This document shows, piece after piece, positions 5,932 to 7,059 of a DNA stretch of 64,000 nt. The notes under the pieces are model-generated. The model saw only the letters and a program-made list of their open reading frames with translations, made no database searches and was not told the origin of the DNA. Position numbers and translations under genes: made by a program. Where the stretch lies: assembly GCF_003018115.1 (NCBI RefSeq), contig NZ_CP027457.1; one strand, given 5' to 3'. This DNA comes from Escherichia coli. Its GTDB lineage: Bacteria; Pseudomonadota; Gammaproteobacteria; Enterobacterales; Enterobacteriaceae. The number at the start of each line of letters is the position of its first letter. The stretch's first letter is position 1.

Positions 5932-6120
5932 GTGCTCAACATGGCGACAAAAGCAGTAAACGCAAAATCACAAACAGTTGCGGCAAGGGTTCCACATGAA
6001 GTTATGAACAATGTTGAGGCGGTAAAAATGCCCGGCGAAAGTACAGGGCAGTTTGTTACAGCTGCATTAAAGCGGGAAGTTGAATACCGCCAGCGTCGCA
6101 AGGCCAAAGAATCAGAATAA
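5932..6120 (+). CDS. Ribbon-helix-helix (Arc/CopG-like) DNA-binding protein, module 1
   Basis: ORF track (start GTG 5932 or ATG 5941); predicted beta-strand/helix/helix pattern typical of RHH proteins. Confidence 0.55.
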   Translation: MLNMATKAVNAKSQTVAARVPHEVMNNVEAVKMPGESTGQFVTAALKREVEYRQRRKAKESE

Positions 6121-6129
6121 TCACTATCA

Positions 6130-6156
6130 GCGCCGTGGTGTGAGGTACTACGGCGC
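6130..6156 (+). promoter_or_regulatory. Conserved hairpin (GCGCCGT / ACGGCGC) between the RHH gene and its partner, copy 1
   Basis: 7-bp stem; the surrounding ~65 nt are about 90% identical to the copy at 6803-6870. Confidence 0.5.
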
Positions 6157-6177
6157 ATTGCTTTACAGGGCAGTATC

Positions 6178-6405
6178 ATGACCAACAACACACTATCACC
6201 AATACAAGACACGCAAACGCAAGATGATGAAATCATCCGGCAAAGGCAGTCAGAAGCCTGCGCCAGACTTGAGGAAGAACTAACCAGAACAAAAATACCA
6301 CCACCAGCGCCGCGCTTAGTGCCACCAGAAAAATTTGCCCTTGAAGATTTTGTCGATAAATACCCACGGCGGCTTAAATCCGGCAAAAACCGACCGCCTG
6401 GCTGA
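6178..6405 (+). CDS. Hypothetical small protein (75 aa), partner of RHH module 1
   Basis: ORF track; shares N-terminal MTN and an FALEDFVDKYPRR-like motif with ORF 6856..7059. Confidence 0.5.
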   Translation: MTNNTLSPIQDTQTQDDEIIRQRQSEACARLEEELTRTKIPPPAPRLVPPEKFALEDFVDKYPRRLKSGKNRPPG

Positions 6406-6524
6406 GTGCACAAAACCGAACTATGAAACGGATTATTCCGTTTCCGGGGCGTTTGTGTGTGTATAAAGAGTAAGCTATGCTCTTTTATAGCCATAATCGT
6501 TACCTCAATTAATGGTTTGGTTAG

Positions 6525-6566
6525 ACGCCCCGTATGTGAGCCACCACTGCGGGGCGTTGTTTTTTG
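6525..6566 (+). terminator. Rho-independent terminator between the two RHH modules
   Basis: Stem ACGCCCCG / CGGGGCGT followed by TGTTTTTTG. Confidence 0.5.
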
Positions 6567-6582
6567 TATAACGGTAAGTACA

Positions 6583-6626
6583 ATGGTAATTACCATGTAA
6601 CTATAGTAATTAAGGGTAATTACCAT
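6583..6626. promoter_or_regulatory. Two perfect palindromes (ATGGTAATTACCAT; GGTAATTACC) in the RHH module-2 promoter, the second abutting the start codon
   Basis: Palindromes at 6583-6596 and 6615-6624 with a related half-site between them; ATG of the RHH gene at 6625. Confidence 0.6.
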
Positions 6627-6798
6627 GTCAACACCATTGGAAAAGCGATCGCCTCCATACCAAATGCGGCTACCAGAAGAATTCAGAGCACAACTTGAAG
6701 AGGCAGCGAAAGCAGACGGTGACACTTCTTTAGCCACCTGGATCAAGCGAGTACTCCGAAAAGAATTACAGCAACGCGGTATTGAACCCAAAGGATAA
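6625..6798 (+). CDS. Ribbon-helix-helix DNA-binding protein (57 aa), module 2
   Basis: Hand translation MSTPLEKRSPPYQMRLPEEFRAQLEEAAKADGDTSLATWIKRVLRKELQQRGIEPKG; below the ORF-track size cutoff; classic RHH pattern. Confidence 0.6.
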   Translation: MSTPLEKRSPPYQMRLPEEFRAQLEEAAKADGDTSLATWIKRVLRKELQQRGIEPKG

Positions 6799-6807
6799 AA
6801 AACATCA

Positions 6808-6834
6808 GCGCCGTGGCGTGAGGAACTCCGGCGC
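6808..6834 (+). promoter_or_regulatory. Conserved hairpin between the RHH gene and its partner, copy 2
   Basis: GCGCCG / CGGCGC stem; paralogous to 6130-6156. Confidence 0.5.
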
Positions 6835-6855
6835 ATTGCTTTACAGGTACACACA

Positions 6856-7059
6856 ATGACCAACAAAGAATCAACCAATACACCATCGCAAAAAACGAAC
6901 AGAGAGCACGAAAATATGGCGTTCGAGCATGAATCAGAAAGATTCGCACCATGCGCTTTTGTCCTTGATGAGTTTCTAAAAAAATATTCACGTTCTGAAC
7001 GGATGAAAATGGCAGCACAATACGGCCCCAACAAGCAAGATAATTGCCCACCAGCCTGA
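6856..7059 (+). CDS. Hypothetical small protein (67 aa), partner of RHH module 2
   Basis: ORF track; paralog of ORF 6178..6405. Confidence 0.5.
   Translation: MTNKESTNTPSQKTNREHENMAFEHESERFAPCAFVLDEFLKKYSRSERMKMAAQYGPNKQDNCPPA

What the first reader, a model, noticed from the sequence alone, without database searches (positions are those of the whole stretch)
5932..7059. Tandem duplicated RHH + small-partner modules with distinct operators
Two consecutive modules each encode an Arc/CopG-like RHH protein followed by a ~70-aa partner; the partners share MTN and an FxLEDF/KYxR motif. Each module has its own palindromic operator set, with different sequences. This resembles a toxin-antitoxin, anti-repressor or two-specificity regulatory pair and is not a standard described satellite module as far as I can tell.
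Basis: partly seen in the sequence, partly recalled or inferred. Interest (0 to 1): 0.7.

Follow-up and report, generated by a model that had tools for sequence, protein, structure and literature searches.

The report
Tandem repressor cassettes in phage satellite
Two different small repressor-plus-partner gene cassettes sit head to tail, on the opposite strand, inside the control region of an E. coli phage satellite. They look like the missing 'off switch' of these satellites, embedded in a long reading frame that is kept free of stop codons but is not conserved as a protein.

Summary
At 5932-7059, four + strand ORFs form two cassettes, each a 57-59 aa Arc-like ribbon-helix-helix (RHH) protein followed by a 67-75 aa partner, and each has its own repeated palindromes. 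It is not a recent duplication: the RHH proteins are 27% identical and the partners 24%, while two DNA linker blocks are 71-82% identical.

The element is a capsid-forming PICI satellite at tRNA-Pro in E. coli. In 12 related loci the operator sequence changes with the RHH allele. Each operator set encloses a strong minus-strand promoter aimed at the icd/kil-like and replication genes. The RHH proteins are therefore most likely immunity repressors of that promoter, and the tandem array gives two specificities.

RHH and partner types are shuffled freely, and the partner matches no toxin family, so a toxin-antitoxin reading is unlikely. The partner's function is unknown; the family has only 21 clusters, and every placed member is in E. 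coli.

The cassettes lie antisense inside a 501-codon stop-free minus-strand frame running from alpA to icd. This frame is open in all 14 satellite loci checked but shows no amino-acid conservation. It is the positional analogue of P4 eta, whose translation prevents premature termination.

The parts
5551..5748 (-). icd/kil-like gene, first gene of the leftward (replication) operon
   Evidence: NCBIfam phage_ICD_like 64.8 bits; PGAP 'host cell division inhibitor Icd-like' in relatives
5699..5818 (+). Block A copy 1: conserved linker. It holds the icd ribosome site and start on the - strand, and a two-hairpin RNA ending in a + strand intrinsic terminator (stem 5777-5811, U-tract to 5818)
   Evidence: Repeat families D2/D3. 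Folds have z -4.8 to -5.1, and the hairpin is more stable on + than on -. Compensatory and G.U pairs across 11 variants
5837..5890 (.). Operator set O1: three copies of GTGTT[G/A]AACAC
   Evidence: 0 of 100 shuffles. The sequence changes with the RHH allele in relatives
5851..5879 (-). P_L1: leftward sigma-70-like promoter TTGACG-17-TAAATT inside O1, aimed at icd
   Evidence: An equivalent minus-strand promoter is present in all 10 RHH upstream regions scanned
5883..5911 (+). Candidate P_R1 promoter for R1-P1 (TTGAAC-17-CATACT, 8/12)
   Evidence: weak match, inferred
5941..6120 (+). R1: 59-aa YlcI/YnfO-family, Arc-like RHH protein (allele type a)
   Evidence: NF041551 59.7 bits against a cut-off of 30; phrog_949; hhalign to the R2 family E=3e-4
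6114..6188 (+). Block B copy 1: conserved linker with hairpin 6130-6156, a weak U-tract, and the partner ribosome site and start
   Evidence: Family D1; terminator-like site; -19.3 kcal/mol on + vs -13.6 on -; precedes every partner gene seen
6178..6405 (+). P1: 75-aa partner, type 1 (..KFALEDFVDKYPRRLKSGKNRPPG)
   Evidence: Wobble excess of substitutions 34/18/16
6445..6565 (+). Block A copy 2: + strand terminator for R1-P1 (stem 6524-6558, U-tract to 6565). It also holds a truncated icd-like start on the - strand (ATG 6494-6492)
6583..6626 (.). Operator set O2: ATGGTAATTACCAT twice, plus a half-site at 6600-6612
6603..6631 (-). P_L2: leftward promoter TTGACA-17-TACTAT (10/12) between and over the O2 sites; its -35 overlaps the R2 start codon
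6625..6798 (+). R2: 57-aa Arc-like RHH protein (allele type b)
   Evidence: phrog_228 Arc-like repressor E=4.9e-7. 24 of 25 substitutions between alleles are synonymous in the + frame. AF2 gives extended N-terminus, helix, helix
6792..6866 (+). Block B copy 2 (hairpin 6808-6834)
6856..7059 (+). P2: 67-aa partner, type 2 (..ERFAPCAFVLDEFLKKYSRSER..)
   Evidence: phrog_21027 E=2.4e-12
7122..7155 (+). + strand intrinsic terminator after P2 (hairpin plus U7)
   Evidence: -19.8 kcal/mol on + vs -7.3 on -; hairpin also seen in the Rfam chance alignment
5736..7226 (-). eta-like stop-free frame (open 7241->5739, 501 codons; first ATG 7226 inside alpA). It is antisense to both cassettes, and its stop overlaps icd codons 4-5
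7181..7387 (-). alpA (Vis-like activator/excisionase)
   Evidence: phrog_66/2790; Pfam Phage_AlpA on the equivalent gene of relatives

Best explanation
Context. The window holds a capsid-forming PICI satellite integrated at tRNA-Pro. Its minus strand runs int, alpA, icd/kil-like gene, replication genes, capsid genes.

Proposal. Between alpA and icd lie two heterologous 'immunity' cassettes on the opposite strand.

How each cassette is proposed to work (all steps inferred):
- An RHH dimer binds the repeated sites upstream of its own gene.
- This shuts a strong leftward promoter embedded in those sites. That promoter (P_L) is the analogue of P4 P_LE and would otherwise drive the icd/kil-like and replication genes.
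- Binding also autoregulates the rightward RHH-partner transcript.
- A hairpin (block B) attenuates expression of the partner. The partner is a small helical accessory protein made in the quiescent state, and its target is unknown.

Shown from sequence. Three + strand-specific terminators insulate the cassettes while letting minus-strand transcripts pass.

Inferred induction route. On helper-phage induction, transcription from the alpA promoter runs through the cassettes in antisense. The minus strand is kept translatable from alpA to icd as an eta-like frame, so ribosomes protect this read-through RNA from Rho and deliver it to icd. This is what is reported for P4 eta. Convergent transcription would then lower RHH synthesis and release P_L.

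Inferred role and origin of the tandem. Two cassettes in series give two repressor specificities, so either leftward promoter can fire the operon. The arrangement arose by recombination at the conserved linkers.
For: RHH identity.

Operator and RHH co-variation:
- a: GTGTTGAACAC x3
- a': GTGTCTTACAC x3
- a'': GTGTCAGCCAC x3
- long2: GAATCACA repeats (about 4 by eye)
- b: TGGTAATTACCA x2
- b': ATGTGTATATACACAT
- c: AGGTGGCCACCT x2

Leftward promoter: a minus-strand sigma-70 promoter lies inside every operator set, including a perfect TTGACA-16-TATAAT in type b'.

Operator location: the sites occur nowhere else in the window.

Coding signal: + ORFs show an excess of wobble-position substitutions (R2 24/0/1, P1 34/18/16).

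Stop-free minus frame:
- 0 stops in 501 codons, against 11-39 in the other five frames.
- The longest open frame in 2000 dinucleotide shuffles is 280 codons.
- P is about 1e-3 given the protein sequences, and a further 717 nt of + non-coding DNA is also stop-free.
- It is open in all 14 satellite loci with different cassette content.
- In + non-coding segments its three codon positions vary equally (56/64/60), so only openness is selected.

Terminators: they are stronger on + than on - and have U-tracts only on +.

P4 parallel: the frame opens inside vis/alpA at the same GCATGGATG. The published account says eta is coupled to the alpA homologue, contains a constitutive promoter, and that its translation prevents termination (PMC10111431, summarising Forti 1999).

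Field context: PMC6092414 states that a global repressor in Gram-negative PICIs is unclear and that AlpA-dependent transcription continues past alpA.
Against: - No binding, transcript or ribosome data exist; all promoters are consensus matches.
- The + strand promoters are weak matches (8/12).
- The RHH fold is supported by profiles and secondary structure only. The AF2 model has pLDDT 67 and Foldseek hits to Arc/KacA/ParB have E about 5. Pfam Arc is E=0.0085 and PDB sequence searches are not significant.
- The partner has no assignable function.
- In the window the long frame is not in frame with icd.
- No Bro/Eta domain is detectable in the long frame.
- alpA deletion alone abolishes induction in model PICIs (PMC6092414), so the weight of P_L relative to the alpA promoter is unknown.
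Confidence: 0.6

Rival explanations
1. Each cassette is a type II toxin-antitoxin pair: the RHH is the antitoxin and autorepressor, and the partner is a small toxin.
For: The gene order (RHH first, small second gene) and the palindromes upstream resemble RHH-antitoxin operons. KacA, an RHH antitoxin, is among the weak fold hits.
Against: - The partner matches no toxin or defence model. An exhaustive profile search finds only 21 small clusters.
- The RHH proteins are 57-59 aa, with about 10 residues beyond the fold.
- RHH and partner types are combined freely across loci.
- Some loci carry two partners after one RHH.
- A hairpin/attenuator separates the genes.
- The operators enclose a divergent promoter for the island's own operon.
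Confidence: 0.05
2. This is an Arc-Ant-like module. The partner would be an anti-repressor or derepressor, for example of the helper prophage repressor (like P4 epsilon) or of the RHH itself. It would be made in a burst before the RHH shuts the promoter.
For: The operon order RHH-then-effector and negative autoregulation resemble P22 arc-ant (from established knowledge). The partner family is fast-evolving and satellite-restricted, with no tblastn match in 50,697 phage records. That pattern fits an arms race with helpers.
Against: No Ant/BRO/KilAC/Rha domain is present. Relatives carry true Ant or Rha genes on the minus strand downstream of alpA instead. The partner model is a short helical protein of low confidence.
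Confidence: 0.12
3. Only the RHH genes and the minus-strand eta-like gene are real, and the partner ORFs are untranslated by-products. Alternatively, the long minus-strand ORF encodes a functional protein and some + ORFs are artefacts.
For: PGAP annotates the minus ORF as a 247-248 aa protein, and no + ORFs, in O157:H7-type and other loci. Wobble positions of the two frames coincide, so many tests cannot separate them. For P1, discordant sites are 6 against 5. The N-terminus 'GRGFVRP' of the minus ORF is conserved in some loci.
Against: - Partner ORFs stay open, with the same start context, in at least five divergent types. Profile-detected relatives keep the F-A-L-E-x-F-[LV]-x-K-x-P-R motif.
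- Period-3 variation is seen inside P1 but not in the minus frame outside the + ORFs.
- Replacements are more conservative in the + frame (mean BLOSUM 0.02 vs -0.51).
- The minus product matches no family and has the look of an antisense translation.
Confidence: 0.1
4. The RHH proteins are not promoter repressors. They would be site-specific DNA binders for another job, such as partition or centromere binding, packaging (YlcI/YnfO genes sit beside terminase genes in lambdoid prophages), or excision control.
For: R1 belongs to the YlcI/YnfO family, which has no known function. R2 has weak hits to PHROGs named 'partition protein ATPase' (phrog_2685/795, E about 1e-3). An RHH ParB is among the weak fold hits.
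Against: The sites occur only at the divergent promoter region. They overlap the -35/-10 elements of a conserved leftward promoter in every allele type. No partition ATPase is encoded nearby.
Confidence: 0.05

Closest known systems
Phage P22 immI region (Arc, Mnt, Ant, sar RNA)
   Same: Both have two small Arc-type RHH repressors with different operator specificities in one short region. In both, an RHH is the first gene of an autoregulated operon followed by an effector gene, with antisense or convergent transcription in the region (established knowledge). R2 matches the PHROG 'Arc-like repressor'.
   Different: Here both RHH genes point the same way and each has its own partner. The partner is 67-75 aa and is not an Ant. 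The repressed divergent promoter drives the satellite's kil-like and replication operon. The cassettes lie inside an antisense open frame.
Satellite phage P4 immunity region (vis - eta/kil - P_LE - CI RNA)
   Same: Same position, directly after the alpA/vis gene and before the replication genes. Both have a long frame that opens inside vis/alpA at the same GCATGGATG and spans an internal constitutive-type promoter. The frame ends in the icd/kil-like gene in several relatives; in the window it stops 10 nt into icd, out of frame. Published role: eta translation prevents termination of the late transcript (PMC10111431).
   Different: No C4/CI or isrK RNA is detected. Immunity appears to be protein-based (RHH plus operators) and is encoded on the opposite strand. 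The frame is 2-3 times longer, has no Bro-network domain and shows no amino-acid conservation. There is no BLAST similarity to the P4 product.
SaPI/PICI master repressor Stl (Rpr) of Gram-positive islands
   Same: Both are satellite-encoded repressors, divergent from the replication operon, that keep the island quiescent (PMC6092414).
   Different: Stl proteins are larger HTH repressors inactivated by helper proteins. Here the repressor is a 57-59 aa RHH, AlpA is still required as activator, and nothing is known about an inducer.
YlcI/YnfO (DUF3950) proteins of lambdoid prophages DLP12 and Qin
   Same: R1 passes the NCBIfam YlcI_YnfO_N cut-off.
   Different: Those genes have no described function or operator. 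The library holds no functional paper on them.

Membership tests
Ribbon-helix-helix (Arc/MetJ/CopG) DNA-binding proteins | Significant profile match to an RHH family | tested here: met
   R2: phrog_228 'Arc-like repressor' E=4.9e-7, although Pfam Arc is only E=0.0085. R1: NF041551 59.7 bits against a cut-off of 30. R1 is linked to the R2 family by hhalign, E=3e-4, over 49 colinear columns.
Ribbon-helix-helix (Arc/MetJ/CopG) DNA-binding proteins | N-terminal strand, then two helices joined by a G-x-S/T/N turn, about 45 residues | tested here: inconclusive
   AF2 monomer of R2: residues 1-17 extended, H18-30, H36-50, mean pLDDT 67. R, G and S are invariant in 9 alleles. Foldseek top hits include Arc 1bdv, KacA and RHH ParB, but at E about 5. 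The strand forms only in a dimer, which could not be modelled.
Ribbon-helix-helix (Arc/MetJ/CopG) DNA-binding proteins | Binds tandem or inverted repeats at its own promoter | not testable with these tools
   The indirect test is positive: repeat sequence co-varies with the RHH allele in 9 types. Physical binding is untested.
Type II toxin-antitoxin system with RHH antitoxin | Second gene belongs to a toxin family or fold | tested here: not met
   No NCBIfam, PHROG-function, PADLOC or toxin match. The AF2 model is a few short helices, pLDDT 66.
Type II toxin-antitoxin system with RHH antitoxin | Antitoxin carries a C-terminal toxin-binding extension, and the pair is inherited together | tested here: not met
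   The RHH proteins are 57-59 aa. RHH and partner types are recombined in six combinations. Double partners occur in L015 and L012.
Type II toxin-antitoxin system with RHH antitoxin | Partner toxic, neutralised by the RHH | not testable with these tools
   Needs expression experiments.
P22 immI-type Arc-Ant module | Effector gene after the RHH is an Ant-family anti-repressor | tested here: not met
   No Ant/BRO/KilAC hit for the partners. A true Ant (phrog_5817, E=1.9e-41) sits on the other strand in L007.
P4-type immunity region (vis-eta/kil-CI) | Long ORF coupled to vis/alpA that spans an internal promoter and reaches the kil-like gene | tested here: met
   Window frame 7241->5739, with ATG 7226 in the AWM codons of alpA as in P4. 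Its stop overlaps the icd start. The frame is in frame with icd/ash in L004, L007, L009, L010, L014 and L015.
P4-type immunity region (vis-eta/kil-CI) | CI/C4-type immunity RNA and seqA-type target | tested here: not met
   Rfam scan of 4000-9600 at E<=1 finds only the tRNA and two chance hits.
P4-type immunity region (vis-eta/kil-CI) | Eta is a Bro-network protein | tested here: not met
   No PHROG or NCBIfam match for the minus ORF or for the PGAP 'pseudogene' pieces. No period-3 constraint is seen.
Capsid-forming PICI (cf-PICI) satellites | int, alpA, replication gene and own capsid genes, in that order, at a fixed attachment site | tested here: met
   The window holds int 7884-9125, alpA 7181-7387, a RepA-type helicase ORF 2957-4366, and tRNA-Pro 9344-9420. 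Window 1-4707 is 96.7% identical to L002, which carries the prohead protease/major capsid fusion gene.

The most novel reading that the evidence does not exclude
Gram-negative PICIs do have a master repressor, and it has been overlooked because it is encoded antisense. Small RHH immunity cassettes would be nested inside an eta-like 'translation-only' frame whose sole selected property is the absence of stop codons. Induction would then be decided by a contest between two things. One is helper-activated, ribosome-protected read-through from alpA. The other is the convergent RHH transcription and repression of an internal strong promoter. Cassette shuffling and stacking would set heteroimmunity and helper range.
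Probability: 0.35. Interest if true: 0.8.

Novelty: new variant of a known kind. Interest (0 to 1): 0.62.

Why it matters
The 2018 description of Gram-negative PICIs says that whether they have a global repressor is unclear, and it leaves induction to AlpA alone (PMC6092414). A later genomic survey describes the alpA-proximal 'Bro zone' only in terms of Bro-network genes and immunity RNAs (PMC10111431).

The cassettes here give a concrete, testable candidate for the missing repressor. Operator specificities can be read from sequence. The cassettes are present in an O157:H7 capsid-forming PICI (my inference: EcCIEDL933-type) and in about a quarter of complete E. coli genomes in some form.

The stop-free but unconserved antisense frame is a clean natural case of selection for translatability alone. 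It also explains inconsistent annotation, because PGAP calls either strand depending on the genome.

Practically, PICIs are being engineered as delivery vehicles, so knowing their off switch matters.

Tried and rejected
- Rfam at E<=1 found no C4/CI or isrK RNA. I therefore dropped an RNA-immunity reading of block A on the minus strand.
- PADLOC and NCBIfam gave nothing credible for the partners; the Cas8g hits of 16.7 bits are noise.
- Pfam found nothing significant for R1 or R2.
- PDB sequence searches gave only designed repeat proteins or DNA polymerase beta by chance. Arc appeared at E=0.83 with the profile.
- tblastn of a partner against 50,697 phage records found no match.
- AF2 of the partner and of R2 gave only moderate confidence, and fold search was not significant. 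I did not run a fold search on the partner model.
- I tried to separate + from - coding by wobble substitutions. This was decisive for R2 and ambiguous for R1 and P1, because the wobble positions of the two frames coincide. The period-3 test in + non-coding segments resolved it.
- I looked for EcCICFT073 in CFT073 by guessing coordinates and hit the helper prophage at icd instead; I did not pursue it.
- Forti et al. 1999 is not held in the library, so its content is cited through PMC10111431.
- A + strand promoter for a small antisense RNA in block A is not conserved in all variants, so that idea stays a lead only.
- An arginine-rich N-terminal motif in partner types P3 and P4 suggested RNA binding. 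It is absent from P1 and P2, so I did not adopt it.
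Full report
**What is there**

The window is E. coli chromosome. It carries a satellite integrated at tRNA-Pro (9344-9420), next to yejM. On the minus strand the element has:
- int (7884-9125);
- an AlpA-like gene (7181-7387);
- an Icd-like gene (5551-5748);
- several small ORFs;
- a RepA-type helicase (2957-4366).

Window 1-4707 is 96.7% identical to a relative whose next genes are PerC and a prohead-protease/major-capsid fusion. This is the layout of a capsid-forming PICI.

Four small + strand ORFs lie between alpA and icd, all in one frame:

| ORF | Coordinates | Length |
|---|---|---|
| R1 | 5941-6120 | 59 aa |
| P1 | 6178-6405 | 75 aa |
| R2 | 6625-6798 | 57 aa |
| P2 | 6856-7059 | 67 aa |

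GTGTT[G/A]AACAC occurs three times at 5839-5890. GGTAATTACC occurs twice at 6585-6624. In both cases 0 of 100 shuffles reach the observed count.

**Not a recent duplication**

R1 and R2 share 27% identity, and P1 and P2 share 24%. What is nearly identical is DNA between the genes.
- Block B (6114-6188 vs 6792-6866, 80%) is a hairpin plus the partner's ribosome site and its first codons, ATG ACC AAC. This is the source of the shared 'MTN'.
- Block A (5699-5818 vs 6445-6565) is a structured leader. Copy 2 still carries a truncated icd-like start.

Across 12 annotated E. coli loci the cassettes are built combinatorially. There are nine RHH allele types (a, a', a'', two long forms, b, b', c) and at least five partner types. 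They occur as Ra+P1, Ra+P3, Ra''+P3, Ra+P4, Rb+P2, Rb+P3 and Rc+P2. A single cassette is the norm. The two-cassette form covers at least 80% of the query in 74 of 5426 complete genomes, and 1372 genomes have some part of it. Some loci have one RHH followed by two block-B-plus-partner units. The linkers therefore behave as recombination joints, and the tandem is a stack of two heterologous cassettes.

**The RHH proteins and their sites**

- R1 passes the NCBIfam YlcI/YnfO model (59.7 bits against a cut-off of 30).
- R2 matches the PHROG 'Arc-like repressor' (E=4.9e-7).
- The two families align colinearly by profile-profile comparison (E=3e-4).
- The alleles keep an invariant Arg in the predicted strand and a G-x-S turn.
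- AF2 gives an extended N-terminus followed by two helices.

Fold and PDB searches point to Arc-type proteins but are not significant. Pfam is also not significant.

The strongest functional evidence is co-variation. Each RHH allele has its own repeated sequence upstream:

| RHH allele | Repeat |
|---|---|
| a | GTGTTGAACAC |
| a' | GTGTCTTACAC |
| a'' | GTGTCAGCCAC |
| long2 | GAATCACA |
| b | TGGTAATTACCA |
| b' | ATGTGTATATACACAT |
| c | AGGTGGCCACCT |

In every type the repeats enclose a minus-strand sigma-70 promoter. Examples are TTGACG-17-TAAATT at 5879->5851, TTGACA-17-TACTAT at 6631->6603, and a perfect TTGACA-16-TATAAT in type b'. These promoters point at block A and the icd/replication genes. 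The + strand promoters are weaker matches.

I infer that each RHH represses this leftward promoter and autoregulates itself.

**The partners**

Two word-index searches and one exhaustive profile search of 1.84 billion representatives find only 21 clusters. Every member that could be placed is in E. coli islands. None occurs in 50,697 phage records. No Pfam, NCBIfam or PADLOC family matches apart from an unnamed PHROG.

The distant members keep F-A-L-E-x-F-[LV]-x-K-x-P-R, with variable polar positions. Substitutions within P1 concentrate at wobble positions (34/18/16). The partners are therefore most likely real small helical proteins (AF2 pLDDT 66).

Four observations argue against a toxin-antitoxin pair: free shuffling against RHH type, the short RHH, the intervening hairpin, and double partners. 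Absence of Ant-type domains argues against an anti-repressor, and L007 has a true Ant on the other strand. The partner's target is unknown. I treat it as an accessory product of the quiescent-state transcript.

**The opposite strand**

The minus strand from 7241 to 5739 has no stop codon in one frame for 501 codons.
- The other five frames have 11-39 stops.
- The longest open frame in 2000 dinucleotide shuffles is 280 codons.
- Given the four protein sequences, the chance of no antisense stop is about 1e-3.
- A further 717 nt of + non-coding DNA is also stop-free.

The frame is not the codon-aligned 'shadow' frame. Its wobble positions coincide with those of the + genes.

The same property holds in all 14 satellite loci examined, whatever cassettes they carry. 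Lengths range from 253 to 607 codons, and the frame sometimes comes as two overlapping frames that meet at block A copy 2. In six loci it continues in frame through the Icd/Ash domain.

In the + non-coding segments, variable sites fall equally on the three minus codon positions (56/64/60). Replacements are also less conservative in the minus frame than in the + frame. No family matches the product. Openness is selected; the amino-acid sequence is not.

The frame opens inside the 3' end of alpA at an ATG formed by the Ala-Trp-Met codons (GCATGGATG). It stops 10 nt into icd.

P4 has the same arrangement. A 217-codon frame opens inside vis at the same GCATGGATG. According to PMC10111431, summarising Forti et al. 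1999:
- it contains the constitutive promoter and the immunity determinants;
- it nests kil;
[quoted passage not shown] It differs in that no C4/CI-type RNA is detected and the immunity determinants are protein cassettes on the other strand.

**Terminators**

Four hairpins were compared on the two strands: block A copies 1 and 2, block B, and the one after P2.

| Hairpin | + RNA (kcal/mol) | - RNA (kcal/mol) |
|---|---|---|
| After P2 | -19.8 | -7.3 |
| Block A copy 1 | -21.9 | -17.8 |
| Block A copy 2 | -23.8 | -18.4 |
| Block B | -19.3 | -13.6 |

All are markedly more stable as + RNA, and only on + are they followed by U-runs. The block A hairpin keeps its pairing through compensatory changes, and it uses G.U pairs that would be A.C on the minus strand. 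This fits cassettes that are insulated on their own strand but transparent to minus-strand read-through.

**Model**

In the quiescent state each RHH holds its leftward promoter shut and keeps itself, and a little partner, expressed.

On helper infection the alpA promoter is activated; AlpA-dependent expression past alpA is shown for EcCICFT073 in PMC6092414. Transcription then crosses the cassettes, and translation of the eta-like frame protects it from polarity and feeds into icd. Convergent transcription would lower RHH synthesis, releasing the strong internal promoter(s).

Two stacked cassettes give two specificities in series, and the upstream promoter's transcript also has an open frame all the way to icd.

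- Shown: the sequence features, the co-variation and the selection for openness.
- Inferred: binding, repression, anti-polarity and the switch logic.

**Comparison and novelty**

The closest systems are:
- P22 immI: two Arc-type repressors, an RHH-led operon, antisense control.
- The P4 vis-eta/kil-CI region: position, coupled spanning frame, internal promoter.
- Stl of Gram-positive PICIs: satellite master repressor.

The locus fails defining tests for a toxin-antitoxin system, for Arc-Ant and for CI-RNA immunity. I found no paper in the library that mentions RHH genes or antisense cassettes in PICI control regions. The 2018 paper states that a global repressor in Gram-negative PICIs is unclear.

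I rate it a new variant of known kinds: real, conserved and testable, of clear interest to satellite and phage-regulation specialists, with the partner function still open.

Noticed in passing
window 5736-7241 (- strand): A 501-codon stop-free frame lies antisense to all four small genes. It is open in every relative examined but shows no period-3 constraint outside the + ORFs. It is the positional analogue of P4 eta.
   Followed up: yes
window 5736-5822 and 6483-6569 (+ strand): Each block A copy folds as a two-hairpin RNA of about 85 nt ending in a + strand terminator (z -4.8 and -5.2). It is complementary to the icd ribosome site and start, and the CUCCUC anti-Shine-Dalgarno sits in the first loop of copy 1. 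A TATGAT/TATGCT -10-like hexamer lies upstream, but the -35 is not conserved. It could be a cis-antisense sRNA against icd (like P22 sar or lambda oop) or only an insulator.
   Followed up: partly
L016 6075-6818; L011 2575-3321: In an O157:H7 cf-PICI (EcCIEDL933 type by inference) and another island, RefSeq annotates the antisense 247-248 aa ORF as a protein and omits the RHH and partner genes. In other genomes the + ORFs are annotated and pieces of the minus frame are called 'BRO-N', 'Icd-like' or 'hypothetical' pseudogenes.
   Followed up: partly
L015 3700-4279; L012 219-635: Some islands carry two consecutive block-B-hairpin-plus-partner units. The L012/L013 contig has non-E. coli-looking neighbours (Crp-like, PnuC, filamentous haemagglutinin genes), and its organism was not identified.
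   Followed up: no
L007 3574-4374; L015 4738-5376: Some relatives have an intact AntA/AntB-type or Rha-type anti-repressor gene between alpA and the cassette on the minus strand. The stop-free frame then starts at that gene's stop codon instead of at alpA's.
   Followed up: partly
window 6118-6177 and 6796-6855: Each RHH gene and its partner are in the same frame, separated by a single TAA and 19 sense codons that include the hairpin. Read-through would fuse them. This is probably a side effect of keeping the antisense frame open.
   Followed up: no
L009 2682-2987; L010 2226-2531: Two RHH alleles carry a 42-44 aa insertion between the RHH core and the shared RRKAKESE tail. The antisense frame stays open across the insertion.
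   Followed up: no
L003/L004/L008/L010/L011, just downstream of alpA (- strand): In one alpA lineage the minus frame begins with a conserved MK..Y[AST]PE[RQ]GRGFVRP. The differences within the GRGFVRP core are synonymous third-position changes. The same DNA can also form a GGGCG/CGCCC hairpin, so this may be either a real short peptide or an RNA element.
   Followed up: no
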